The position numbers and the translations under genes are program-made. A stretch of DNA of 64,000 nucleotides from Flaccisagitta enflata (Eukaryota), in the NCBI GenBank assembly GCA_965153355.1, contig OZ231126.1:8928001-8992000 (forward strand), written 5' to 3'. Numbering within the stretch: position 1 is the first letter of the stretch; every line of letters starts with the position of its first letter. Positions 9,387 to 54,764 of the stretch are shown here, one piece after another. The notes under the pieces are model-generated. The model was given only the letters and a program-made list of their open reading frames with translations, searched no databases and was not told the origin of the DNA.

Positions 9387-9873
9387 ATGGCAGTGGGAAA
9401 AAAGTCAAAGATGGCATCGAACAAAAGAGCAACGGTAACGCGGGGATGATGACGGCGATGATGGCGACGACGGCGACGGGAGCGACGACGACGACAAAGT
9501 CAGCAGCGGCCGGGGGAGACTCGAGTGGTGGCGGCGGCGCTGGTAGCAGAGTGGCGGCGGCGGAGGCGGCGGCGGAAGCGGCAATGACGATGGTGGTTAT
9601 TGAAAGCGACGGCGACGACAAAAACGCCAACAACAATCACAACAAAAACCTTACAAACAAAAGGGAAAAAGATTCGCGGCAACGAAAATCATCCAAAAAC
9701 GGGGGAACCTATCGTGTTAAAGGAGGAGGGGGAAGAGGAGGAGGAGGAGGAGGAGGAGGAGGAGGAGATGGTGATTCGTCTTCTTCCATGGCCTGTCCGT
9801 CTGATACGCCGTCGCCATCGCCGATGCATAAACCCACGCAACCCCAACGACCCGCTGACTTCAAAGGGTTCAG
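9387..9873 (+). CDS. Exon A of a partial multi-exon gene encoding a low-complexity, likely disordered protein of unknown identity
   Basis: Acceptor tttttgcgcctcgacag| and donor cag|gttggt. The frame is open throughout (DGSGKKVKDGIEQKSNGNAGMMTAMM...PQRPADFKGF) and matches ORF 9446..9883. Its phase-2 end joins the 17591 exon as AG+C=Ser. Confidence 0.75.
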
Positions 9874-10556: not shown

Positions 10557-11331
10557 TTGATCATTTGGACAGGAGTAGTGAGGCCAAAGACCGCAATAAC
10601 CAAAAAAAAGTAAAGTGTGACGGACCGACGGACCGACGGACCGACGGACCGACGGACCGACGGACCGACGGACCGACAGAGCGGGTGTAGAGTCGCGTAG
10701 CACGCGACTAAAAAGTGCTGGTGATAATGTTTTTGTTTACAGGCTTCAACCGCAATCAGTATGGGAAGCTGTTGATATTGTACCAGAAGTTAGTGTTGAT
10801 TTGTTCGCGCGAGGCAGCAGTCGCAATCAGTATATATTTGCTGTTAGGATGTTTGCGTTGAATTCACAGTTGAACCCCGCTCCAACGGACCCGCTTTTAA
10901 GGGATTCTAGGAGTCCAATGTGAAAAAAATTAATAAATATTTTCTTATTGATCTATGTTTCGTATGGGTCAGATAAAAAAGAACGCAAAAAACCGTTTGA
11001 CTTTTGCTCAATCCGAACGTTCTTGACAAAATTCATGTCCAAGTCTGGGATCATGAGTGAAAACTAGAGAAAAAAAAAGATATCAATTGTAATGGAAAAG
11101 GAATCGAACGCGGGACCCTCTATCTAGCGTTCAACGACTTACCGCGATACCATTGCCTCATCTGCCGCTGCTGGGGAATTACAATGGTTTTATTATTGAT
11201 CAAGTAACTTTGACAATGGAATGCAGGATGAGTAGTAAAATTCAACGAGACTTGGTGAAAATCAAAGACGATGCGTCCTCATCACTTTACCAATCTCACA
11301 TCCAATTTTAGGATTAGGTGGTGAAGTGAGA

Positions 11332-13754: not shown

Positions 13755-14172
13755 GTGGTAGTTATCAAGCAACGATCAAGCATATTTCACCCAGACCACC
13801 TCGACCACCTAAAACCACCCAAATCAGCTACACAGTGGTAGTTATCAATCAACGATCAAGCATATTTGACCTAGACCACCTCGACCACCTAAAACCACCC
13901 AAATCAGCTATACAGTGGTAGTTATCAAGCAGCGATCAAGTATATTTGACCCAGACCACCTCGACCACCTAAAACCACCCAAATCAGCTACACAGTGGTA
14001 GTTATCAATCAACAATCAAGCATATTTGACCCAGACCACCTCGACCACCTAAAACCACCCAAATCAGCTACACAGTGGTAGTTATCAAGCAACGATCAAG
14101 CATATTTCACCCAGACCACCTCGACCACCTAAAACCACCCAAATCAGATACACAGTGGTAGTTATCAAGCAA
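13755..14172. repeat. 80-bp minisatellite, 5 full copies plus a partial
   Basis: The unit gtggtagttatcaa...accacccaaatcagctacaca recurs at 13755, 13835, 13915, 13995, 14075 and 14155. Confidence 0.95.
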
Positions 14173-15560: not shown

Positions 15561-17590
15561 GTAATCACTCGTTTCCACTGTCAATTCTATCGGCAATCGG
15601 TCTGCAGCATTGCATAGTGATAGCGTTCCAAACAGCGCTTCAAGCAATGTACCCTAATGATAGAAAAATCACGAAAATCGTTTTCCCTAGTAACCCGTTC
15701 CCACGAAACGAAGCCAGGAACACAAATTACAAAGCTGATGCCATTTGATTTAAGCTATACCCAGTTCTCGTCAGGGAACGTTGAGAACAGAAGAAGCCAA
15801 AAATAACAAATCCGTTTTTATGTGTGTTCGAGACTGCAAAAAGCCGCGAAATTTTACACGTGACTTAGGACAGGGATTGTGATGGGTTGGTCGGAGAAAC
15901 TTTTGTCAAAAAATTGTTTCTTGACACATTTACATGATTAACTAAATTTTTAGTATTGTTTTGCCTGCTTGAATAGGCCCATAGTGAAAATATGAATCCG
16001 ACCAACCCTTAATACCCCTCTGCCCTACCTAAAACCGCAATTCGTTCCGATTTTCTATGTTCGTGGTTTTCTAAAACAGTCCATATCTGAGCTCATAATT
16101 TCAGTGATTTGACATATACTGTAAGAAGACAATGACAGCCGTCGGGAATGTCAATTACCAATTCGTTGGATCTCATTGAGTGTCTTTAGCCCCCACCAGG
16201 CCAGAGAAAGACCTGTCAAAAAGTTTCAACCTTTCGACTAAAAGCCCTTAACGGTATTCCGCCTATAGCAGATATTAATTCTTGGTTCCTTCAGCCTGAT
16301 TTCTTCTATTTCCCATATTAGCCATTATAGAATTCCGCTTATAACAGATGAAGTATGTTGAACCCCTGAAATCCGTTAGAGCGGGTTTTAACTATAGTAG
16401 TAATCACCCTCGTCATTCTGTCACCCGCTACAGCACCTGTCACCCCGTCATGACGCGCGTCACTCCCTAAATCTTCTTCGTCAGTTCCATCTATTTCTTG
16501 TGTGTTTTTTTTTCTATCTCGTTTGTCAGGGAAGAGATCAATTTGTGTTAACCTCAGCTTTGCTTCTTGGCGGTGATCATTCATCCATTTTTGTCAGATC
16601 GGGATCTCAATCTTATCTTCATTTCCACACCTGAAAGGAGTCTTGACTTCTCTTGACATGAATTTCCTCCCAAGAAAAAATCCCAGGGCTTTGCTCTCAC
16701 TTCCCAGGTTTTGCCACTTGTTCAGTCTTACAACTGCTCGAGCTCAACTAACCACTCTTTTCTTGCTTAATCATTACTAGTTTCACAAGCCCTGCCCATA
16801 CCCCTTTTTTCTGCCCGCCCCACTGCTTAGTTTCTGCCCACCCCCTCTAGGACCCTAGCCTGTTGTTCCTCAAGCCCCTGCCCCTATTTTCTTTCCGCCC
16901 TCACTCTTTCTTTCTTTAGCGCATTGACTCGGTGCGATGGTTTACCGCGTAGACAGTGCCCAACTGTCCATGCCCCAATCTTCTATCCGCTCCCGCCCTA
17001 TTTTCTATCTGCATTTTCTTGTTTTTTTTAGTCGCGTGCACGCGACTCTACACTCCGCTTTGTCTGTCCGTCCGTCCGTCGGTTGGTTGGTCGGTCTGTC
17101 GGTCACACTTTTACTTTTTTTATCAATTTTATTTCTTTAAGTCATTTAAAGTCATTTAAGAGTATACTGGGTCATTCTAAGTCATTCTAAGTCATTCTAA
17201 GTCAATCTGTAAGTCTCGCACGCGACTTATAGGTGTTGGCCTTGTTTTTCTCTCTTCATTTTAGCACATTGACTCAGCTTAGTGCTATGGTTTGCTGCAA
17301 AAACGGTGTCACACTCTACCTGCCCCTATTTCCTGCTCGCCCCTGTCCCTTTTTAGTTGCGGACACGCAACTCTATAAGAGACTTTGTCCGTCCGTCCGT
17401 CGGTCCGTCCGTCCGTCCGTCCGTCGGTCCGTCCGTAACCATCGAGTCGAAAAGTGGGAAAATACGCATTTCCGCCCCTGCCCACCCGTCCGCAACTGAT
17501 GGCCGTGTATCCGGCCTTGTTTCTACCTCTTATGCCTCTTATTTCTAACAACCCTCACTCTGTTTTTCTTCTCTTTCCTCTTCATTTTAG

Positions 17591-17900
17591 CGCATTGACT
17601 CCGTGCAACGGCCTTTTGCCAGACAGAGATCGCATCGACGATATCAAAATTCCATCCTCAAAACCCAACCTCGTCGGCAGTAATAACATCAACCACTGTC
17701 AAAACCACAACAACACCCACAACCACAATGGCGGCCTCCACGCTAATCCCCACAACAACAACGCCAACGAAAACAACAGCGCCAACAACAATAGCAACAA
17801 CAACAGAAAACCCTCGCCAGAAAATGACGATGACGTCAACCGGAAGAATGACGCAGAAAATGACGCATTTTTGAGGCGTCGGAAATTCTCCACAGATGGC
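17591..17900 (+). CDS. Exon B of the + strand gene (Asn-rich, ends FLRRRKFSTDG)
   Basis: Pyrimidine tract and ttcattttag| acceptor, ggc|gtaagc donor. Same frame as ORF 17454..18188. Phase 2 in and phase 0 out, matching both neighbours. Confidence 0.8.
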
Positions 17901-18312: not shown

Positions 18313-19147
18313 GTGTATTTGGGTCCATCTACTCCTTCGTCTTCCGGGGCCGGTGGTTCGCTTCGCAGCGGCGGCGGAATTTCCTCCTCTGAAGACGCCG
18401 ATTCGGGCGTCAAGGAAGCTTCCAATCCTTCCGTCAATTCGAAAGCTTCCGGCGGAGAAGTCACGCCCACCGACAACGACGTCGACGTCCGTAACGACGA
18501 AGACGAAGATGTCAACGACGACGTCACCAACAAATCATCTTCCTCCGTGCTCACCGTGAAACCCGCCAAATCAGAGTCCACTGAATTACTCGGCGGGGGA
18601 CAACAACAGCAACAACAACCACAGCAACAACAACAACAGCAACAACAGCGGCGTTGTCGAAACTCATCGCTAAGTTCGATGTCCGCCTTGGATGTGATTT
18701 CTCGACATGACTTGAAGGAATCTTGCGTGGATCCGACTCCGACTCCCAGCGCCTCGCCGAAAGCCACGCCTACTACCGGCGGTAAGGACGCTCTCGTCAA
18801 TTCCACGTCGCTGAACGCCCCCTCCGGTTTTGGCGGAAGTGGCGCGGCGCCGATCCGCGCCATTCCGCCGCCGCCGCCGTCGTCGTCGTCATCGTCGGCG
18901 ATCGTTGCGGCGGCGGCGACGTCGACCAACAAATCCAACTCCTCATCTCCACTCACCAACGGCCCGCCAACTTACGATCAGTGCTTCCCAATGGTCAAAC
19001 AACAGCAACAACAATTGACGCACCAACAGCAACTTCCTCCGCACAACTTGCCAGCTCCTTTGTCATCCGCCATCCTTCCCGCCAATCAATGTCCTCCATC
19101 GATCAACAAGAATGATCCCAAAGAAGACTTGAAAACGTCAAAACCCG
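18313..19147 (+). CDS. Exon C of the + strand gene (Ser/Gln/Pro-rich, contains PPTY)
   Basis: Acceptor ctcttcattcag| and donor cccg|gtacat. GC-rich open frame equal to ORF 18313..19155. Phase 0 in, phase 1 out. Confidence 0.85.
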
Positions 19148-19319
19148 GTACATAATCAAATCTTCCGGCTTTGTCACATAGGATCCTTATTGAGATTGAT
19201 AAATTTGTTGTATCGCTCGAAATTCACCACAGCATGGCTGGCTGATTTTAAACTCGCCGCCCCTTCATAAGTTAAAACAGTTTAAGCGATAGATTGGAAA
19301 TAATTTGCCACTCATAAAA

Positions 19320-20326
19320 CATAGGTTGTCAAATGCCACTTATATAAAAGTTGGACAACATTACTACTCAACCCAATCTAGGCTGTCAAATGCCACTCAT
19401 ATCTCATAGGCTGTCAAATGCCACTTATCACTCATGAGTTGTCATACGCCACTTTTGTGTCATAGGTTGTCAAATGCCACTCATATCTCATAGGCTGTCA
19501 AATGCCACGTATATGTCATAGGTTGTCAAATGCCACTCATATCTCATAGGTTGTCAAATGCCACTCATCAATCATAGGTTGCCAAATGCCACTTATATCT
19601 CAAAGGTTGTCAAATGCCTCTCAAACAACATAGGTTGTCAAATGCCACTCATCACTCATAGGTTGTCAAATGCCAGTTATATCTCATAGGTTGTCAAATG
19701 CCACTCATCACTCTTAGGTTGTCAAATGCCACTCATCACTCATAGGTTCTCAAATGCCACTTGTCACTCATAAGTTGTCAAATGCTACTCATATCTCATA
19801 GGCTGTCAAATGCAACTCATATCTCATAGGCGCATAGGCTGTCAAATGCCACTTATCACTCATGAGTTGTCATACGCCACTTTTGTGTCATAGGTTGTCA
19901 AATGCCACTCATATCTCATAGGCTGTCAAATGCCACGTATATGTCATAGGTTGTCAAATGCCACTCATATGTCATAGGTTGTCAAATGCCACTCATCACT
20001 CATAGGTTGCCAAATGCCACTTATATCTCATAGGTTATCAAATGCCTCTCAAACAACATAGGTTGTCAAATGCCACTCATCACTCATAGGTTGTCAAATG
20101 CCAGTTATATCTCATAGGTTGTCAAATGCCACTCATCACTCTTAGGTTGTCAAATGCCACTCATCACTCATAGGTTCTCAAATGCCACTTGTCACTCATA
20201 AGTTGTCAAATGCTACTCATATCTCATAGGCTGTCAAATGCAACTCATATCTCATAGGTTGTCAAATGCCTCTTATCACACATAAGTTGTCAAATGCCAC
20301 TCATATGTTATAGGTTGTCAAATGCC
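19320..20326. repeat. 28-bp minisatellite (CATAGGTTGTCAAATGCCACTCATATCT), about 35 copies
   Basis: Direct reading. The last unit overlaps the acceptor of exon D. Confidence 0.95.
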
Positions 20327-20451
20327 GTTTCGTCGTATGGATCCTAATCCATTGCCCGCTGATTTTGACCCTGTTGCCCCTTGGGAATCCATGGCACATC
20401 CCAAGGATCAGAGGCAGATGCAAAAGTCCGCAGACGAAATCAAAAGGACAG
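20314..20451 (+). CDS. Exon D of the + strand gene (GCQMPFRRMDPNPLPADFDPVAPWESMAHPKDQRQMQKSADEIKRT)
   Basis: Acceptor gttatag| and donor acag|gtaaag. Phase 1 at both ends, matching exons C and E. Non-repetitive peptide between two repeat arrays. Confidence 0.75.
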
Positions 20452-20460
20452 GTAAAGGAG

Positions 20461-20677
<217 letters not shown>

Positions 20678-20743
20678 CTTTGTTGTCTTTGTTGTCGTTG
20701 TTGTCGTTGTTGTTGTTGTTGTTGCTGTTGCTGTTGCTGTTGC

Positions 20744-20777
<34 letters not shown>

Positions 20778-21121
20778 ATTGTTGTTGTTGTTGTTGTTGT
20801 TGTAGTTCAATATTGTTGTGGATGTTGATGTAATTGGAGCAGTAATTAGATCGGTTTTGTTGCAGTGATTGTAGCTGGTGCTTCGGTTTTGTGGGTTTGG
20901 TTATTGGTTTCAGATAATGGTATCGTTATGGCCATATCAGAAATGATAATGATAGTGATACATTGCAATTTGCAAGTGGTACTGATGAGTGATGAGGCAG
21001 GTTTATGAGCGATTTTGCTCTTTCTCCCACTCTCTTTCTTTCCCTTTCTACCTCTCTATCATTCCATCGTTCATGGGCCTCACTCCTCGCCTTTTGGCTT
21101 TTTATAGTTCATCCATCATTC

Positions 21122-21854: not shown

Positions 21855-24800
21855 CCCTCACATGCATATCTTCAGCTAGCTGCGTTATTTCTTGTAAGAA
21901 AAAAAAAATCGTTGAGGATGGCAAAAAAAAAGTGATTTCTATGTAAAATTGCATCAGGATTCCATTTTTGATGTTTTTAGGGCCCTACGAGGGGGCCCCT
22001 AGAAACGCACCAAAAAAAACAGCCAAAAATAGCCTATTTTGGCTATTTTTGTTGAAAATTTTTTGCTTTATGAGACCCTAACCCCCAAATTTTTTTGGTG
22101 GTAATACTTTTTGATGTAAGAGACTGAAAAAAAATGATCATCATGGTAAGTGATGGTTGGGGTACCTAAAAAGGCCCAAAAAGGGCCCGTAAAACATAGA
22201 AATATCACTTTTTTATTCATTGTGCGTCTAAAAATGCTTGGATTCCTACAAAATTTGAAATGGAACTTCTCATTTTATGCAACAATCTTCCTGCAAAGTT
22301 TTGTGGCCACTTTTGAACAGCTTCATGTTGAAATTATGCTCCAAAAAACAAAATTCGGCCAAAAAAAACCCAATATTTGAGTATTCTTACATGAAAACAC
22401 TATTTCAAGGTCCCTGAATCCAATTTTTTTTTTTGAAAATGGTTAGTCATGCATCTTGAGAGATCCCAGAAAAAATTTCAGCAGATATTTCCAAAAAATG
22501 GCCGAGTTATTACTTTTCAAAATGACCTGGTAAATGAAAAAAAATACAATTTTGTAACTTCAAGGCTGTAGAACTGAAAAATTATACTAAAAGTACCTGG
22601 AAAATAGACAAATTAAAAAGAAAATGCATGGGGAATTCATTACTGGTGGTTTGGGGGCTCTACAAGGGGGCCCCTGGAAACTCACCCAAAAAAAAGCTAA
22701 AAATGGCCTATTTTGGCTATTTTTTTAGAAATTGTCTTGTTTAAAGAGACCCAATCCTTCCAAATTTGTTTGGGCTATACTTCATGATGTAAGAGACTGA
22801 TGGAAAGAGAATCATGATGGTAGATGATGGTTGGGGTACCTAAAAAGGCCCGAAAGGGGCCCGTAAAACATAAAGATATCATTTTTTTATTCACTGCGCG
22901 TCCAAAAATGCTTGGATTCCAAAAAAATTTGAAATGGAGATTCTCATTTTATGTAAAAAGCTTTTGAACAGATTCATGGTAAAATTATACTCAAAAAAAC
23001 GAAATTCGCCCCAAAATAAGCCAATTTTTTAGTTTTCTCACATGTAGACACTATTTCAAGGTCATGGAATCCCATTTTTGTCGCATGCACGCGACTCTAC
23101 AACCCACTTTGTCTGTCCCTCTGTCCGTCCGTCAGTCTGTTGGTCAAACATTATTCTTTTTATTACTTTTAGTTATTCTTAGTCATTTTAGGCCATTTTT
23201 AGTCATTCTAAGTCATTCTAAGTTATCGTAAGTCATTGTAAGTCATTTTGAGTCATTTTACATTATATCAAGTCGCTTATGTCAATTTGGTCAATTTAGT
23301 CGTATAAGTCATTTATCATCATTTTATGACTTTTTAAGTTATTTTCAGTCATCTTAAGTCATTTTAAGTCAATTTGAGTCATCATAAGTTATCTATGTCT
23401 CGCACGCGACTTATAGGTGTTGGCCTTGTTTTTTCTAAATGGTTTCTCATGTATCTTAAAAGGTCCCAGAAAAAATTTAAGCAGATATTTTTAAACAAGG
23501 CCGTATACAAGAGCCGAAGTCGCGTGCGGGTGGGCAGGAGCGGCGAAAAAAGCTAAGCGTGACCGCTAAGTGTGACCGACCGACGGACAGACGGACAGAG
23601 TGGGTTATAGAGTCGCGTGCACGCGACTAAAAATGCTAGTACTGTTTAAAATGACCTGGTTAATGAAAAAAGTAAAGAGGCTGTTTGCATGAAAAATTCT
23701 ACTAAGAGTAACTGGAAAAAAGTTAAATGTATTTAAAAATGCATGGTGAATCTATTTCAGATGGTTTAAGGGTCCTATAAGGGGGCCCCTAGAAACGCAC
23801 CAAAAAGACTTTCTATAAATGGCCTGTTTTTGCTATATTTGGTAAAAAGAAATTTATCAATGAGACTCCAACCTTCTAAAATTTAAGGTAAGAATACTTC
23901 TTGATGAAAGAGACTGAAAAAAAGAATCATGATGGTAGGTGATGTTTGGGGTACCTGAAAGGCCCAAAAACGGGTGATAAAACAATGATACAAATTTCTT
24001 ATTCATTGTGCTTTAAAAGTGCTTGGATTTCTTCAAAAAATTGAAATAGAACTTTGCATTTAATGCAAAAAGCTCACTGTTAATTTTTGGTTCCTTAATT
24101 GGAGTATTTCATGAAAAAAAAATAGAAAACCACAAAATTGCCCCCCCCCCACCTCTGTAAATTCAATTTTCATTTTCATTTAAACCAGTGTTATTTAAAA
24201 AATAGTTGTTCCTGCATATGAACAGTAAACAGAAAGATGATCAACTTTACAGCACCAATATGACTCAGCCTGGACCATATGCTTAGAATCTTTAAGTGCA
24301 CCAAAGCATTTTTGATTCACTTACTGGCAAACAAAGAATACCATTTTCTTTTTTAAAACAGTTTCATTGTTTTTCATGTGGCCCAGTTGCCCAGGGGTGT
24401 CCGCGTGGAGGCACATACCGATTTCCCATATCAGGATGAGTCAGGTGAGTCACATGGTTCATCCTGATATGGACATTACACCCCCTCCTAGCTAGCTAAG
24501 CTAATAAGCAGGACTGTGGAGGTCAAAGTTGCTTATTTAAGATGTATCTTCCCTTTCTCGGACTATCATGAGTTTTTTATCCTTCATTTGTCATCAGAGG
24601 CCAATAAAACAAACAAATACGAATTTCTTATTCATTATGCTTTAAAAAATGCTTGGCTTCCTTAAAAAACTTGAAATAGAACTTGTCATTCAATGCGAAT
24701 AGCTTCCTGTTGATTTTTAGTGCCTTAATTGGAGTGTTTCATGGAAAAAAAAAGAAATCTGTAAAATTCACCTCTCTCTCTCTCCCCCTTGTCACTCACT

Positions 24801-26077
24801 GCCCTCTTTCCATTTTTATCCCTCCCCCTGTTATGAGATTCCTTTGTGTCTGTATGGTTGTAACCCACTATATCAGACCCAAGAGTAATGGTTTTAGGGG
24901 CCCTTTTTGGGGCGAATTTTGTTTGAGCATAATTTTACCATGAAGCTGTTCAAAAGTGACCAAAAAATTTTGCAGGAAGCTATTTACATGAAATGAGAAT
25001 TTCCATTTCAAATTTTTTAGGAATCCAAGCATTTTTGGACGCGCAGTGAATAAAAAAATGATATCTTTATGTTTTACGGGCCCTTTTTGGGCCTTTTTAG
25101 GTACCCCAACCATCACCTACCATCATGATTCTCTTTCCATCAGTCTCTTACATCAAGAAGTATAGCCCAAAAAAATTTGGAAGGATTGGGTCTCTTTGAA
25201 CAAGAAATTTTTACAAAAAAAAGCCAATATAGGTCATTTTTAGCTTTTTTTAGGGGGGTGTTTCCAGGGGCCCCCTTGTAGAGCCCCCAAACCACCAGTA
25301 ATGGATTCCCCATGCATTTTCTTTTTTATTATTTCTATTTTCCAGGTACTTTTAGTATGATTTTTCAGTACTACAGCCTTGAAAATACAAAATTGTGTTT
25401 TTTTTCATTTACCAGGTCATTTTGAACCGTAATAACTCGGCCATTTTTTGGAAATATCTGCTGAAATTTTTTCTGGGATCTCTCAAGATGCATGACTAAC
25501 CATTTTCAAAAAAAAAATTGGATTCAGGGACCTTGAAATAGTGTTTTCATGTAAGAAAACTCAAAAATTGGTTTTTTTTTTGGTCAAATTTTGTTTTTTT
25601 TAGCATAATTTCAACATGAAGCTGTTCAAAAGTGGCCACAAAACTTTGCAGGAAGCTTGTTGCATAAAATGAGAAGTTCCATTTCAAATTTTGTAGGAAT
25701 CCAAGCATTTTTAGACGCGCAATGAATAAAAAAGTGATATTTTTATGTTTTACGGGCCCTTTTTGGGCCTTTTTAGGTACCCCAACCATCACTTACCATG
25801 ATGATCATTTTTTTTTCAGTCTCTTACATCAAGAAGTATTACCACCAAAAAAATTTAGGGGTTGGGGTCTCATTAAGCAAAAAATTTTCAACAAAAATAG
25901 CCAAAATAGGCTATTTTTGGCTGTTTTTTTTGGTGCGTTTCTAGGGGCCCCCTCGTAGGGCCCTAAAAACATCAAAAATGGATTCCTGATGCAATTTTAC
26001 ATAGAAATCACTTTTTTTTTGCCACCCTCAAAGATTTTTTTTTTTTTACATGCTAGCTGAAGATATGCATGTGAGGG
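21855..26077. mobile_element. piggyBac-like non-autonomous element (4.2 kb) with kb-scale inverted arms
   Basis: TIR CCCTCACATGCATATCTTCAGCTAGC with TTAT on both flanks. The arms are built from repeated units of about 0.7 kb. Two HINE-like insertions at about 23077-23432 and 23492-23632. Confidence 0.85.
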
Positions 26078-27125
26078 TTATCACCTTTTCATGAATTTAT
26101 GATTTGCCTTTTCTCTCTCTCTCTCTCTCGGCTTATGTGTAGGAGACGGCCGGACATATGTAAGCACATATTTAAAGATTTAATTAAGCACAATGCCCCA
26201 ACATTAAACTAATACAGCTAACTTTGACCCTACCCTTTAATCATACCTCACTCCCTACCCCTGAACCCAACCCTGCCCCTAAACTCTTCACTACCCCTAA
26301 ACCCAGCCCTACGCCCACCCCTAAAAACTTTATCTTCCCATTTCTCCTTTCAGGGCGTGTTTCTAGTGACTCCCAAAAACGCTTTTGTTCCTGTGAAACG
26401 CGATCACAGCGTAAACACATATTTAAGAATTGGGTGAAGTGAATGAGCGAGCCCGTGAACGGAGCGAGCAAAACGAGCATAGCAAAGCTAAGCGCTGCGG
26501 AACGAATGAGCGGAGTGAGTGGTGCGAGCGAACGAACGTAGCGAGCGACCGAGTGGCTCTTTCAAAACGCGATTTTCTCTTACTGGAAACGTCCCCTCAG
26601 TCTCCTTCGCCTTCTCTTTTGGCTTTCATCCCTCAGATCTCTCGATCCTTTCCTCAAGTCTAAACCTGTGTTAAGACTCTTGACGTCATTCATACAGAGC
26701 CCTGGTCGAGAATATCACTGTCATTCATACAGAGCCCTGGTCGAGAATATCACTGCCATTCATTCAGAGTCCTGGTTGAGAATATCACTGCCATTCATTC
26801 AGAGCCCTGGTCGAGAATATCACTGCCATTTATTCAGAGCCCTGGACGAGAATATCACTGCCATTCATTCAGAGCCCTGGTTGAGAATATCACTGTCATT
26901 CATTCAGAGCCCTGGTCGAGAATATCACTGCCATTCATTCAGAGCCCTGGTCGAGAATATCACTGCCATTCATTCAGAGCCCTTGTCGAGGCTCACCTCT
27001 CCATTCATCCACAGCCCTGGTAGACACTCTCACTGCCATTCATTTAAAGCCCTGCGTGAGACATTAGTTGCCATTCATCCAGAGCTCCAGTTGAGATTAT
27101 CACTACCATTCGTTGAGACTATCAC

Positions 27126-28869: not shown

Positions 28870-30629
28870 ACTATCACCACCATTCATCCTGAGCCATAAT
28901 TGAGACTTGCCTTGTTGTTCATTGGGAGCCTTGCTTGTGACTCTCAAGGTTGAGACTATCACTGCCATTCTTTCAAAGCCTAGGTTGAGAATTGAGACTA
29001 TCACTGCCATTCATCTAGAGCCCTGGTTGAGACTATCACTGCCATTCATTTAAAGCCCTACTTGAGCCTATCACTGCCATTCATTCAGGGCCCTGGTTGT
29101 GACTCTCATTATTGTTAAATGTTAATCTAGAGTCCTTGTTGAGACTTAGTGTCATTCATCCAAAGCCCAGGTTGATACTCATAAGCCCAGGATGAGATTC
29201 TCACTGGCATTCATCCACAGCCCTGGTTGACACTCAGGAGCCAAGGATGAGATTCTCACCAGCATTTATCCAGAGCCTTGGTTGACACTCTCATTGAGTT
29301 TCTGTTGTAATACTCAAAAGCCTAACCTAGTCCTTCTATCAAGGGCTGTTCTTGATAACACATCCAACCTTTAACCTGGCTAATTGTCATGCCATCTAGC
29401 ATTTACCTGTATTTTTTGTTGCGGACACGCAACTATAAAAGAGGCTTTGTCCGTCCGTCCGTCCGTCCGTCCGACAGTTATAATCAAGTCGAAAAGTGGG
29501 AAAACAAACGTTTTGGATACTTTTTGTGTATGTCTGTGTGTGGACGCGGGGATTGGGGTTTGGATAGGGGTTGGACGCCCCTGCCCACCCGTCTGCAACG
29601 ATATTGTGACCCCGCGTCACTTGTTTCTTTCTTTCTTTCTTTCGTTCGTGATTTCTTTCTTGATTTCTGTCGCTCTCCTTCATACAATGCCGTTCTTCAC
29701 ATTTTCCTCTCTTTCTTTCTGATTTTTGCTCTATCTTTCTCTCATTTTCCTTTCTTAGCTTCTTACTTCGCATCTACTCATTCTTCCATTCTACTTATTT
29801 TTTCTCGTTCTTTCTTCTTTTCAGTTGTGGACACGTAACTCTATGAAAGGTTTTGTCTGTCCGTCCGTCCGTTGTGTTGTTGGTCCATCAGCATGAGCCA
29901 AAAAGTGGGAAAATGAGCGTTTTTTATTACTTTTTGCAAATGTTTGAGTGTGTATTGGCGGTCAGGGTGTAGATAGGGGTTGGATGCCCCTGCCCACCCG
30001 TCCGCAACGACATTGTGACCCCGCGTCACTTGTTTCTTTGTTCTTTTGTTCTTTCGTACATTCTTCCCTCCTTTCTTTCGTTCTTTCCTTTCTCCGCTTC
30101 TTCTTTCATTCTTTCTCTCTTCATTCCTTTCCTTTTTTTCTCAATTTCCTCTACTTTATTCATGCAGTTTATTCACACTGAAACTCCTTTTCTCTTCATT
30201 TCTTGTCCCGATGTGACTTCTGGAGTGATCGTTCCTTGTTTTCTGGGTTATCGAATCCAAAATTGAGAAGATAGTCCATATAAGGTCATATCAGGTGAAA
30301 TGCATTTTGAAGGAATGAATCGTTGGTTCACATCACACCTATAGAAAAGAAAAAATAGGTCCCTGTAGTACAGCGGTTCTATTCCGTGTTCTCTCTGTCT
30401 CTTTCTCTATGACTGTCTCTGTCTCCTTCACTTTATCTCTGTCTTTTTCTGTCTCTCGCTTTCTCTCTGTTTCTCCCTGTTTCTCTCTGTTTCTCTGTTT
30501 CTCTTTCTCTCCCTCTTTCTCTATGTCTCTTTCTCTCTCTCTCTGTCTCTTTCTCTTTCTCTTTCTCTGTCTCTGTCTCTGTCTGTCTGTCTGTCTGTCT
30601 CTCTGTCTGTCTCTCTGTCTGTCTGTCTG

Positions 30630-32780: not shown

Positions 32781-33218
32781 GCGTCGTGACGACGTCGTTC
32801 TCGGCTTCACTTCCGGTGGGCAGTCGGCCGATCAAAGCTCCTCCTCCTCCTCCTCCCAAATTCGGGACTCCCGATGACGTCACCGTCGTCAAGATTTTCG
32901 ACGAGCGGCGCTACAAACTGGAAAAGGCCAAACAAAAGCACAACGACTCCTTCGACAGCCAGGAAGAGGAAGAGGACGAAGAAGAGGAAGAGGACGAGGA
33001 GGAGGAAGAGAGGAGTTTATCCTCCAAAGGGGCGAATCATCCTATGATCCCCGGTCAAAACCCGGCTAAACACGGCAATGTTGGGATCATCAACAATCCC
33101 GCCAACGCCAACAACGTCAACAACAACAATAACAACAACATTAACAACAATAACAACGCTCAAGTCGCGGTTTCTGCCAGCGGCAAAGCCAACGGATCTA
33201 TTTACAGACCCAATCAAG
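32781..33218 (+). CDS. Exon E of the + strand gene (polyPro, acidic tract, Asn-rich); downstream exons not found
   Basis: Strong acceptor ccttccttcctccag| and donor caag|gtcagt. Frame of ORF 32786..33709. Phase-1 entry fits exon D. Confidence 0.8.
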
Positions 33219-43679: not shown

Positions 43680-44449
43680 ATTTGAATGCCGTGGCATTTG
43701 ATGCTGGAGGCCATACCGTCCGACAAAGCAGCATTTGAAGCTACACATAATAACCCAGTATGCAGTTGAATGTGATGCTAACAACCATACCTCTGTATGC
43801 ACAGTGCAGTTGCATCTGAAGCAGCAGATCATAGCTTTGGCCTTGGATGTAGTTGCATTGGAAGATGCATATCATACCTCTGTATGAAGTTTTCGATTTC
43901 TTTGACACTGTAGACCATACCTCTGTGTGCACTTACAAATGAAGCAGCAGCAGCAGATCATACCTTTTTATGCAGTTGCATTCGATGCTGCAGATCTTAC
44001 CACTGTATGCAGTTGCATTTGATGCTGCAGACCATACATCTGTACGCAGTTGCATTTAATGCTGCAGACTATATCTCTGTATGCAGTTGCATTTGATGCT
44101 GCAGACCATACCTCTGTACGCAGTTACATTTGATGCTGCAGATCATACCTCTGTACGCAGTGGCATTTAATGCTGCAGACGATACCTCTGTACGCAGTGG
44201 CATTTGTTGCTGCAGACCATACCTCTGTACGCAGTGGCATTTAATGCTGCAGACCATACCTCTGTACGCAGACGCATTTTATGCTGCAGACCATACCACT
44301 GTACGCAGTGGCATTTGATGCTGCATACCATACCTCTGTACGCAGACGCATTTTATGCTGCAGACCATACCACTGTGCGCAGTGGCATTTGATGCTGCAG
44401 AGTGCAGACCATACCTCTTTACGCAGTGGCATTTGATGCATGGGATATC
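43680..44449. repeat. 37-bp minisatellite (GCAGACCATACCTCTGTACGCAGTGGCATTTRATGCT), about 20 copies
   Basis: Direct reading. It overlaps the 3' end and donor of VWC exon 2 and decays toward lower coordinates. Confidence 0.95.
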
Positions 44450-51513: not shown

Positions 51514-52392
51514 GCTATGTAGATTGTAGATACAGACTTAACAAAATCAATCAAGGCGCTTACTTGTAAAATAATGAAGTGAACGTGTTCTAATTCTATT
51601 GATTAAAAGAATCTATAATATCTTCTTTTGGGAACATCGGCACATTTTCTATAGAGTAACAGCTGTGGCTTCCCTTATTTCCTGCCAACTCTCGTGCCCA
51701 GCGCCATACGGGAGTGTATAATTTTGGGGATGCCACCTCCAATTTGTGTCACGACAACTTTTAAGTGTCCCGATCAATCTGACTAATGATTTTTAGATGC
51801 GTCCGTCAGGAATGCATCTCTATAAGAGGGTATGTCCATCCATTCGTCGGTCCGTTGCACTAAAGGCCATGGAATGCGCTAGATGGCTCATTGGGTCAAA
51901 ATCCTTCATCTCTGCAATATGGCTAAAACTAAGTAGAATGGTCATAGTAGCATTTTAGCATACATTACCAGTCCATTTGACAGGTTTTATGGCGATTTAG
52001 AGTGAAAAAAAGCGACCTCAATGGACATTACAACGAAAAATGCTGAGTTTCAAGAAAAATCAATGATTTTTTTGGATTATCTGTTGAGGATACAAAAAGC
52101 TCATTATATCTTCAATATTGGATTGGATTCCTTCATTTATGATTACATGTCTAGAAAAATTTAAAAAAACATCATTTTTTACATTTTTAGCACTAATAGA
52201 TTAGCCTACAATAACTACATTTTTGACCTAATTTGCATGCTTTATTAACCAATGAATAAAAAAAATCGCACAAGGACGCACAATGAGCGACCTATGCCAA
52301 AATGTAGCTTAAGGGGTCCTGAATCCAGAATGCTATGGCTCAAGCCGTACAAAGACGTACAAATTGCGATTTTCTGGTCCTAAACTGGACAG

Positions 52393-54635
52393 CAGACTGG
52401 GCCGTAGGACCCTTATTAAGGCAGATCGGCTACCAACAGCAGGGACTGGCTTCATTCATCATAACAACAAGATTTGCCAAGTTTCATGACCATATGATTG
52501 ATTTTACTCATGGCCGCCACCCCCCCTAAAATCCCAGCATGAGGGTTGTTGTGGTAAAAATTCCAACTTTGGGTCACTTTAGCCTCAAAATTAGGCCCCT
52601 TCGAATTCAAATTTTGACCTAAAATCCATGAGATTATAAAACTAGCGCTCAAGAGCTAACTAGTGGTGCAATCCGCATGTTTTTATCTTAATTTGTTGAG
52701 ATTTGAGAGCATTTCAAAGATGAAAGGGTATAAGGGTCAAATTGCAGCTTATTTTCAGTGGCAATTTTGACATTTTTCACAAATTTGAACATATTTTGGC
52801 TTTGGATGGAGCAATCAGCATGAAATTGGTGATCAAATTTAAGAGTTTTTGCTGCTCTAGCTGATGGAAAAAAATTTTGGATCAATTTTGCCTTTAATTT
52901 TTTTAATTGACTGTAGAAGCAGGTGTAAAAAAGTGGATTTTCTTGAAAACTGAGCAATTTTTGGACAAAAAATTGGACCACTTCCATTTTTAAAAAAGAC
53001 TTAAAATCCATGAGCAAAATAAAGAGCTGCTCAAGAGCTAACTAGTTGTGCAATTGGCATGTCAATATGTTTTTGCATTTAGATTTTACAGAACTTTAAA
53101 GATCAAAGGGTATGTCAAAATGACCATTTATGGTCTCTTTGGCCGTTTTGGCCTCAATTTGGGGTCACTTTGCTGTAGAAATTGATAGAAAAATCTGTAA
53201 GATTATAAAACTAGAACTCAAGAGCTAACCAGTGGTGCAATCCGCATTTTTTTATCTTAATTTGTTAAGATTTTAGAGCATTTCAAAGATGAAAGGGTAG
53301 GAAGGTCAAATTGCAGCTTCAATTTCATTTTATCATACCCACTGTTCTTTGAAGCTCTGCTAAATCTACATGCTTCAACATATTGAGATGCCGATTGCAC
53401 CACTGGTTAGCTCTTGAGCTGTAGTTTAATTTGCTCATGTATTTCTTGTCTTTTTCTAGCTCGGAAGCACCAAAATTTTGTGACAAAAGTAACAAAATGG
53501 GCAAAAAAAATACTCTTTTTAGCACCTGATTCTACAGTCTCCAAAACATTTTGAGGGTCATATCGATCAAAAATTTTACCAGAATCAGTTAGAGCATCAA
53601 AAAAATCTTCAATTTGGTCACCAATTTTATCCATATTTGTCCATACAAAGCCGAGATATATCAAAAAATGTATTTATTGTCAAATTTGCCCCCCAAGTTT
53701 ATCCAGTAAAATAACCCTCATACTCTTCTACCTTTGAAATGCTCTCAAACTAAAACGAAAAATGATAGCAACATGCGGATTGCACCACTGGTTAGCTCTT
53801 GAGCTCTAGTTTTATAATCTCACAGATTTTTCTATCAATTTCTATGGCAAAGTTTACCCAAATTTAGGTCAAAATGGTCTAAGTGATCATAAATGGTCAT
53901 TTTGACATACCCTTTGATCTTTGAAGTTCTGTAAAATCTAAATGAAAAAACATATTGACATGCCGATTACACAACTAGTTAGCTCTTGAGCAGCTCTTTA
54001 TTTTGCTCATGGATTTTAAGTCTTTTTTGAAAATGGAAGTGGTCTAATTTTTTGTCCAAAACTACCCAATTTTCAAGAAAATCGACTTTTTTACACCTGC
54101 TTGTACAGTCAATAAAAAAAATCAAGGGCAAAATCGATCAAAATTGTTTTTACCATCAGCTAGAGCAGCAAAAACTTTTCAATTTGATCACCAATTTCAT
54201 GCTGATTGGTCCATCCAAAGCCAAAATATGTTCAAATTTGTGAAAAATGTCAAAATGTCAAAATTGCCACTGAAAATAAGCTGCAATGTGACCCTCATAC
54301 CCTTTCATCTTTGAAATGCTCTCAAATCTCAACAAATTAAGATAAAAACATGCGGATTGTAACACTAGTTAGCTCTTGAGCTCTAGTTTTATAATCTCAT
54401 GGATTTTAGGTCAAAATTCAAATTCGAAGGGGCCTAATTTTGAGGCCAAAGTGACCCAAAGTTGGAATTTTTACCACAACAACCCTCATGCTGGGATTTT
54501 AGGGGGGGTGGCGGCCATGAGTAGAATCGATCATATGGTCATGAAACTTGGCAAATCTTGTTGTTATGATGAATGAAGCCAGTCCCTGCTGTTGGTAGCC
54601 GATCTGTCTTCGTAAGGGTCCTACGGCCCAGTCTG
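52393..54635. mobile_element. hAT-like foldback element with inverted arms of about 0.9 kb
   Basis: TIR CAGACTGGGCCGTAGGACCCTTA and 8-bp TSD CTGGACAG at 52385-52392 and 54636-54643. Mirror ORFs on opposite strands (52452- and 54376+) reflect the arms. Confidence 0.9.
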
Positions 54636-54764
54636 CTGGACAGGTAATAATGCGGAAAAAAGGAAAAAAAGCAGTTTTGGTCGAATTATCTTGTTTTAAA
54701 TCAAACCGTTATGATTTGTGTTGCTCTTATTCTTCTAGGAACTTCCATCCGTATTTTCCTAGTA

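What the first reader, a model, noticed from the sequence alone, without database searches (positions are those of the whole stretch)
19320..20451. Minisatellite made of about 35 tandem copies of an exon's own 3' splice junction
Seen: the 28-bp unit is ...CATAG|GTTGTCAAATGCC..., and the only phase-compatible acceptor for exon D (TTATAG|GTTGTCAAATGCCGTTT, exon start 20314) is the last unit. Most of the 1.17-kb intron therefore consists of near-identical decoy acceptors, each followed by the first 13 nt of the exon. Reading the consensus from an upstream copy reaches TAG within about two units or shifts frame. Inference: the spliceosome must pick the most distal of about 35 equivalent sites, or the array acts as a copy-number-tuned source of NMD isoforms or stepwise re-splicing, since most units contain AG|GT as recursive splice sites do.
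Basis: partly seen in the sequence, partly recalled or inferred. Interest (0 to 1): 0.8.

Follow-up and report, generated by a model that had tools for sequence, protein, structure and literature searches.

The report
Splice-junction 'mirage' in muscarinic receptor gene
A 28-base piece spanning a predicted intron/exon border of a muscarinic acetylcholine receptor gene stands in 35 head-to-tail copies; such copies are common in this animal's introns and are known from lancelets as 'mirages', so this is likely harmless clutter that splicing ignores, although no RNA of this animal was available to show it.

Summary
The array is real: 35 copies of a 28-bp unit (19310-20326), 30 with AG in register, found only here in the genome. 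It lies in the long third intracellular loop of a muscarinic-receptor gene whose transmembrane exons flank the window. Exon D (20314-20451) fits the phase chain but has no homologue, has a weak acceptor and can be skipped, so it is predicted (about 75-80% real), not shown. No RNA of this organism was found, so acceptor choice is untested. Correction: a second open in-phase acceptor lies at 20287. The architecture is the amphioxus 'mirage'. In this genome 23 of 311 homology-anchored introns carry copies of their own junction, no more often than intron-internal sequence is duplicated; a myosin exon has four stronger upstream decoys. Recursive splicing is unlikely (1.17-kb intron, weak regenerated donor, GT lost in 7 of 30). 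Best reading: neutral in-place expansion with silent decoys. This scan has noted the same structure in several other genomes. New member of a known kind; low interest.

The parts
19310..20326 (+). Minisatellite: 35 units of 28 bp = 15 intron-side bases ending in AG + first 13 bases of predicted exon D; the last unit (20299-20326) holds the predicted authentic acceptor
19306..19309 (+). 4-bp direct repeat (TGCC) at the 5' edge of the array, also the last 4 bases of every unit (20323-20326 in the last): microhomology that fits an origin by slippage (inferred)
   Evidence: array edges
19405..20258 (+). Recent higher-order duplication inside the array: two 428-bp blocks (19405-19830 and 19833-20258) that differ at 4 positions
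20314..20451 (+). Predicted exon D, 138 nt, phase 1-1, 46 residues of the receptor's third intracellular loop; skippable without frameshift
   Evidence: no homologue
20285..20313 (+). Second open, in-phase acceptor (AAG; exon would start at 20287 and gain 9 residues)
19148..20313 (+). Predicted intron C-D, 1166 nt; donor GTACAT weak (11th percentile)
18313..19147 (+). Predicted exon C (phase 0 to 1), strong acceptor, clear coding score
17591..17900 (+). Predicted exon B (phase 2 to 0)
16908..17310 (+). Two older, diverged copies of exon B's acceptor junction (exon-like parts begin at 16920 and 17265)
9387..9873 (+). Predicted exon A (phase 1 to 2), start of the loop; weak likeness to the SSSP-x-x-SD stretch of homologues
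32781..33218 (+). Predicted exon F (phase 1-1); the next exon, with TM6, starts just past the window (L173:139)
20460..20807 (+). (GTT)n microsatellite 8 bases after D's donor

Best explanation
The array is 35 head-to-tail copies of a 28-base piece that spans the predicted start of exon D of a muscarinic-receptor gene, likely made in place by slippage and unequal exchange and likely neutral, with the upstream copies predicted to stay silent. Shown: the array, its confinement to this locus, its internal 428-bp duplication, the host gene, the stops after every upstream copy, and that copies of an intron's own junction are common in this genome. Inferred: a first duplication between two TGCC tetramers 28 bases apart, then growth as an ordinary minisatellite. 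Inferred: D is recognised through its own donor and exon body (exon definition), so that the acceptor nearest that body (20314, or 20287) is used, or D is skipped in frame; the rare upstream choice would give a receptor cut off before TM6 and a message likely removed by decay.
For: Host gene: six exons hit Pfam 7tm_1 in order, positions 1-29, 31-66, 68-122, 133-193, 176-222, 226-260; best solved relatives of the TM4-5 exon are muscarinic M3, E 9e-10. The chain TM4-5, A, B, C, D, F, TM6 is phase-consistent and stop-free with or without D. D: donor at the 60th percentile of real donors; a random intronic start gives such an open symmetric exon in 81 of 8462 trials; coding score above 97% of 286 decoy exons and best in the predicted frame. 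Background: 23 of 311 homology-anchored introns carry a copy of their own junction 20-mer (17 donor and 8 acceptor hits; control 1 of 1842), and junction 20-mers are copied no more often than intron-internal ones (25 of 376 against 141 of 1229). A myosin-head exon (G000:C3:9375045-9375693, minus) has four upstream acceptor copies scoring 14.8-17.3 bits against 13.5 for the last one, which alone leads into the conserved GKFIRIHFG stretch. The same receptor gene has five copies behind its TM1 donor. In amphioxus, mirages were reported not to disturb splicing (PMC3087553, PMC3902484; passages); in human CBS the distal of two duplicated intron 7/exon 8 junctions is strongly favoured (PMC2630376, passage).
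Against: No transcript evidence: the only raw RNA run offered had 1 partial read on exon C and none on an actin 3' UTR of this genome, so it is not shown to be this organism. D has no homologue. Its acceptor is weak: 1.5th percentile with 135 training introns, 9th with 311, rank 21 of 33 AGs in the array. Its synonymous-codon score is poor (3rd percentile of coding windows, 73rd of stop-free intron windows). The 34 decoys are far more than in any acceptor-side case of my survey (at most 4), so some leak is likely. The survey genes (actin, kinesin, myosin families) are paralogues, not independent, and their expression was not shown.
Confidence: 0.65

Rival explanations
1. D is not an exon. The array is an ordinary intronic minisatellite that happens to contain AG, exon C splices straight to F, and the '13 exon bases' are only the partial last unit that every tandem array ends with.
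For: No homologue of D; weak acceptor; poor synonymous-codon score and a second open frame over D; the receptor frame is intact without D; 11% of intron windows are as GC-rich as D.
Against: About 1% chance of an open phase 1-1 exon with such a donor; coding score above 97% of decoys and like exons A and B of the same gene; the exon-side half of the unit varies less than the intron-side half (8 against 17 distinct variant letters, p = 0.054), as in homology-anchored donor mirages (9.6% against 16%); B, C and F also have no clear homologue.
Confidence: 0.2
2. The array acts as a copy-number dial: more decoys divert more transcripts into stop-bearing forms or raise skipping of D, and so tune the amount or the loop length of the receptor.
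For: All 34 upstream starts give stops 104-1104 bases before D's donor; 29 decoys keep AG and 20 of 32 other AGs outscore the last one; the array is less folded than shuffles (z = +2.7), so structure would not hide them; a recent 428-bp duplication suggests length change.
Against: No expression or population data. Junction copies occur at or below the general rate of local duplication. AG is not clearly better kept than the neighbouring exon-side bases. Published mirages were reported as silent.
Confidence: 0.09
3. The AG|GT units are recursive (ratchet) sites through which the intron is removed stepwise.
For: [quoted passage not shown]
Against: Regenerated donor 2.3 bits against 8.7 for D's donor; GT changed to GC in 7 of 30 AG units; 28-base steps are below the shortest intron found in the training set listing (92 nt); AG|GT is simply how exon D begins, as many real exons here do.
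Confidence: 0.03
4. The array is a member of a dispersed satellite or transposon family that landed beside the exon and supplied its acceptor.
For: A 37-bp array at 43953-44439 shares 11-12 bases with the unit on the other strand.
Against: The 20-mer occurs nowhere else and the 14-mer only singly elsewhere; the 37-bp array is itself found only at its own place.
Confidence: 0.03

Closest known systems
Amphioxus 'mirage' minisatellites: Adh3, globins BflGb6 and BflGb9, troponin C, PGBD5 (PMC3087553 and PMC3902484, passages read; the Adh3 paper PMC117041 is not held and is known only through these)
   Same: Tandem copies of an intron/exon border; BflGb6 has the same polarity (3' end of intron + 5' part of exon); many but not all units keep splice signals; unit length within the 10-72 bp given for Adh3.
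   Different: 35 copies against 3-6 in BflGb6; a genome of 9 large contigs, unlike amphioxus (chromosome number recalled); here the exon and normal splicing are predicted, there RT-PCR was done.
Human F7 intron 7 37-bp VNTR (PMC1557585, abstract and Discussion read)
   Same: VNTR whose end unit spans the exon/intron border; 5-9 identical pseudo-sites are functional but stay silent; the site next to the exon is used.
   Different: Donor side, not acceptor side; tested with 50 constructs.
Human CBS 844ins68 (PMC2630376, passage read)
   Same: Duplicated intron 7/exon 8 junction; the distal site is strongly favoured and normal mRNA is made.
   Different: Two copies, 68 bp; a polymorphic single duplication, not a minisatellite.
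Drosophila ratchet points / recursive splice sites (PMC8605326, Introduction read)
   Same: Juxtaposed AG|GT; cryptic exons that would be out of frame or carry stops.
   Different: Those are conserved, mostly in long introns, with a donor generally stronger than the cryptic exon's; here the donor is weak, often lost, repeated every 28 bases in a 1.17-kb intron.
Muscarinic acetylcholine receptors (Pfam PF00001; PDB M1-M5; invertebrate homologues P0001-P0004)
   Same: All seven transmembrane segments found in order; 57-67% identity over the TM4-5 exon; long low-complexity third loop.
   Different: Loop exons B, C, D and F have no clear counterpart in the four homologues; subtype (B-type or GAR-like, recalled label) was not tested.

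Membership tests
Mirage (junction-spanning minisatellite) | Head-to-tail minisatellite-like repeat | tested here: met
Mirage (junction-spanning minisatellite) | Unit spans an intron/exon border of its own gene | tested here: inconclusive
   True if D is an exon; sequence evidence favours it but no RNA or homologue
Mirage (junction-spanning minisatellite) | Many but not all units keep the splice signal | tested here: met
   AG in 30 of 35, AG|GT in 23 of 35
Mirage (junction-spanning minisatellite) | Locus-specific origin | tested here: met
Mirage (junction-spanning minisatellite) | Normal splicing is undisturbed | not testable with these tools
   No RNA run of this organism
Mirage (junction-spanning minisatellite) | Length varies between haplotypes | not testable with these tools
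   One assembly only; a 428-bp internal duplication with 4 differences is indirect
Recursive splice site (ratchet point) | Tandem acceptor-donor AG|GT | tested here: met
   23 of 35 units
Recursive splice site (ratchet point) | Regenerated donor stronger than the downstream exon's donor | tested here: not met
   2.3 against 8.7 bits; feature from PMC8605326
Recursive splice site (ratchet point) | Lies in a long intron | tested here: not met
   1166 nt; between the 75th (792) and 90th (1722) percentile of 311 sampled introns, far below the 31-73 kb examples
Recursive splice site (ratchet point) | Splicing intermediates or lariats at the site; conservation across species | not testable with these tools
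   No RNA and no relatives held
Poison (NMD-coupled) alternative acceptor | Use creates a stop well upstream of the next junction | tested here: met
   34 of 34 upstream starts; 104-1104 bases before D's donor
Poison (NMD-coupled) alternative acceptor | The site is used and regulated | not testable with these tools
   No RNA of this organism
Dispersed satellite or transposon family | Arrays of the same unit elsewhere in the genome | tested here: not met
Muscarinic acetylcholine receptor (host gene) | Seven-TM rhodopsin-family domain with closest solved relatives among M1-M5 | tested here: met
Muscarinic acetylcholine receptor (host gene) | Activation by acetylcholine; subtype | not tested
   No tree or assay

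The most novel reading that the evidence does not exclude
The array is a heritable dial on a neurotransmitter receptor: copy number sets how often a 46-residue cassette of the third intracellular loop is included, lengthened by 9 residues, skipped, or replaced by a stop-bearing form. More widely, selection would shape mirages in this genome: donor-side copies carry 60-80 exon bases, acceptor-side copies almost never more than about 30 (18 of 182 against 1 of 188 at 40 bases into the exon), which would make these arrays a natural series for how much exon an upstream decoy acceptor may carry before it competes.
Probability: 0.1. Interest if true: 0.55.

Novelty: new member of a known kind. Interest (0 to 1): 0.17.

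Why it matters
As a single locus it matters little: the structure has a name and published precedents, and similar copies stand at about 7% of sampled introns of this genome. Two things are of modest use. A short-unit array with 29 intact decoys and a last acceptor that is not the strongest is a clean natural test of whether exon definition rather than site strength picks the 3' splice site. And the in-genome survey gives a frequency, a neutral control and a donor/acceptor asymmetry for mirages, which my searches did not find reported genome-wide; those searches cover open-access full text only.

Tried and rejected
X24 gave 1 partial read on 18660-19375 and 0 on an actin 3' UTR of G000: no test. 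Exon F: none. RNA structure hiding the decoys: rejected (z = -0.06 for the 3' end, +2.7 for the array). Dispersed satellite: rejected. Junctions as duplication hot spots: rejected. A small candidate exon at 10743 was dropped (weak sites, poor coding score, phase mismatch), as were candidates at 1441 and 43334. Branch-point mapping from 135 introns gave only a diffuse CTNAY enrichment, too weak to place a branch point. In one search exon C was scored in a wrong frame (stops); one search has the right frame. One of the 8 acceptor hits (C6:28396051-28396529) looks like a mis-called border and another (C1:361803-355032) has a real copy but a border probably called about 47 bases too far in; both are left in the count of 23 of 311. 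The Adh3 mirage paper is not held. Supplements of PMC3087553 (BflGb6 alignment) were not opened and may bear on the unit-level comparison.

Full report
OBSERVATION. The repeat is there. TRF reports a 28-bp array at 19379-20326 with 33.6 copies. Anchoring on the first 13 bases of the proposed exon D gives 35 copies from 19325 to 20314, spaced 28 apart except for one gap of 57 and one of 36. Each unit is 15 intron-side bases plus those 13 bases. AG stands in register in 30 of 35 units, AG|GT in 23 of 35; the five others have an AG one base further on; mean pairwise identity is 81%. The array spans 19310-20326 and fills 1004 of 1166 bases of the intron that starts at 19148. It begins right after a TGCC and every unit ends in TGCC, and it holds two 428-bp blocks that differ at 4 positions. 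A 20-mer of the unit has 11 of 11 genome matches here, a 14-mer 17 of 27, the rest single. Read on from exon C, all 34 upstream starts meet a stop after 7-46 codons. One correction: two AGs, not one, give an open in-phase exon to donor 20452, at 20314 and at 20287.

HOST GENE. An exon scan of 244 kb around the window, with splice and coding models trained on this genome, found transmembrane exons upstream, and a motif scan found TM6 and TM7 just downstream. Six exons hit Pfam 7tm_1 in order over positions 1-260 (two of the six pass the curated cut-off alone). The TM4-5 exon's best solved relatives are muscarinic M3, E 9e-10, and 4 of 26 candidates passed in the protein search, invertebrate receptors at 57-67% identity. 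The whole window therefore lies in the third intracellular loop of a muscarinic-type receptor gene. The chain TM4-5, A (9387-9873), B (17591-17900), C (18313-19147), D (20314-20451), F (32781-33218), TM6 is phase-consistent and free of stops with or without D.

IS D AN EXON? Any tandem array ends in a partial unit, so the finding stands or falls with D. For: its donor is at the 60th percentile of 311 real donors; a random intronic start gives an open phase 1-1 exon of 90-300 bases with such a donor in 81 of 8462 trials; its periodic coding score exceeds 97% of 286 decoy exons, is best in the predicted frame and is like that of exons A and B, though only at the 6th percentile of 109 real exons; the exon-side half of the unit varies less than the intron-side half (8 against 17 distinct variant letters, p = 0.054). 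Against: no homologue in any search; a weak acceptor (0.5 bits, 1.5th percentile with 135 introns; 3.1 bits, 9th percentile and rank 21 of 33 array AGs with 311 introns); a poor synonymous-codon score; and it is dispensable for the frame. My estimate is 75-80% real, possibly as a cassette exon. No RNA could decide: run X24 had 1 partial read on exon C and 0 on an actin 3' UTR of this genome, so it is not shown to hold this organism.

HOW COMMON IS THIS HERE? From actin, kinesin and myosin-head loci of G000 I inferred 311 GT-AG introns by protein homology. Their own junction 20-mer recurs in the adjoining intron at 17 donors and 8 acceptors, in 23 of 311 introns on 19 of 95 segments, against 1 of 1842 for junction 20-mers sought in unrelated introns. 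Two of the 8 acceptor borders look mis-called and are left in the count. Junctions are not hot spots: in the 188 introns of 330 bases or more, 25 of 376 junction 20-mers have a copy against 141 of 1229 intron-internal ones (positions are not independent). A myosin exon at G000:C3:9375045-9375693 (minus) has four upstream acceptor copies of 14.8-17.3 bits, all above the 13.5 of the last one, which alone runs into the conserved head sequence. The receptor gene itself has five copies behind its homology-anchored TM1 donor and two diverged copies of exon B's acceptor. Donor-side copies carry long exon pieces and acceptor-side copies short ones (18 of 182 against 1 of 188 at 40 bases into the exon, Fisher p = 2e-5, paralogues not independent; a check for picking the wrong copy as the true border found 0 cases on either side). 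The 13 exon bases of this array fit that pattern. No acceptor-side case in the survey had more than 4 copies, so the copy number here is high.

MECHANISM. Most likely (0.65): a 28-bp duplication between two TGCC tetramers, growth as a minisatellite, and silent decoys because the exon is defined from its own donor and body, the acceptor next to it being used or the exon skipped in frame. Origin and splicing are inferred. Site strength cannot explain the choice, nor can RNA structure. Rivals: D is no exon (0.2); a copy-number dial through decay or skipping (0.09); recursive splicing (0.03), against which stand a 2.3-bit regenerated donor, loss of GT in 7 of 30 AG units and a short intron; a dispersed satellite (0.03).

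WHAT IS KNOWN. [quoted passage not shown] PMC3902484 (passages) adds PGBD5 and troponin C. PMC1557585 (abstract and Discussion) shows functional but silent donor copies in the human F7 VNTR. PMC2630376 (passage) says that the distal of two duplicated CBS intron 7/exon 8 junctions is strongly favoured; it calls them donor sites, though by position they are acceptors. The Adh3 paper was not held. A search for mirages, minisatellite and intron gave 3 papers, two on amphioxus and one on pines that I did not read; two searches listed no genome-wide count of such repeats. After I had reached this reading, the scan's own notes showed 8 follow-ups from other genomes with the same architecture, some with more copies and some with transcript support for the last site; these are unchecked AI notes and are not counted as evidence. 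None was noted for this genome.

VERDICT. Real repeat, correctly described in outline, at a predicted exon of a muscarinic receptor gene. It works like, and probably is, an acceptor-side mirage: three defining features met, the exon border inconclusive, splicing and length variation untestable here. New member of a known kind; interest 0.17.

Noticed in passing
L189:979-1340 (G000:C1:8878979-8879340, upstream of the window): Donor-side mirage behind the receptor's TM1 exon: five or more diverged copies of about 38 bases holding the exon end and its donor.
   Followed up: partly
window 16908-17310: Two diverged copies of exon B's acceptor and first 40-50 bases, 671 and 326 bases upstream; the farther one scores higher as an acceptor than the predicted real one (13.8 against 12.7 bits).
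   Followed up: partly
L173:2511-2880: The 20 bases around the receptor's stop codon recur twice downstream, with (CAA)n between.
   Followed up: no
G000:C3:9375045-9375693 (minus; L144): Myosin-head exon with four upstream acceptor copies (unit about 70-77 bases), each scoring higher than the last one.
   Followed up: partly
G000 survey: Donor-side junction copies carry 60-80 exon bases, acceptor-side copies almost never 40; 23 of 311 sampled introns carry a junction copy. Actin-like paralogues share an array at the same donor (76-bp unit in three genes, 86-bp in a fourth).
   Followed up: partly
window 43953-44439: 37-bp array, found only here, whose minus strand shares 11-12 bases with the 28-bp unit; unexplained, possibly chance.
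   Followed up: partly
window 21893-26050 and 52385-54643: Two large foldback-like elements with inverted arms of several hundred to over 1000 bases at 91-97% complementarity in the best pairs.
   Followed up: partly
window 13755-14172, 26687-27118, 28950-29290: Further minisatellites (80 bp; 35 bp twice, related to each other) in the receptor's introns; no exon link tested.
   Followed up: no
L189:5189-5590 (minus): Exon of a transporter-like gene (weak Pfam Sugar_tr hit, E 0.003) nested on the opposite strand in the receptor's first introns.
   Followed up: partly
G000: Many actin-like and myosin-head loci (141 and 123 exon-level matches), suggesting expanded families.
   Followed up: no
about 65-75 kb downstream of the window (L179-L180, minus): Long open stretches that look like an LTR retrotransposon (label recalled, not tested).
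   Followed up: no
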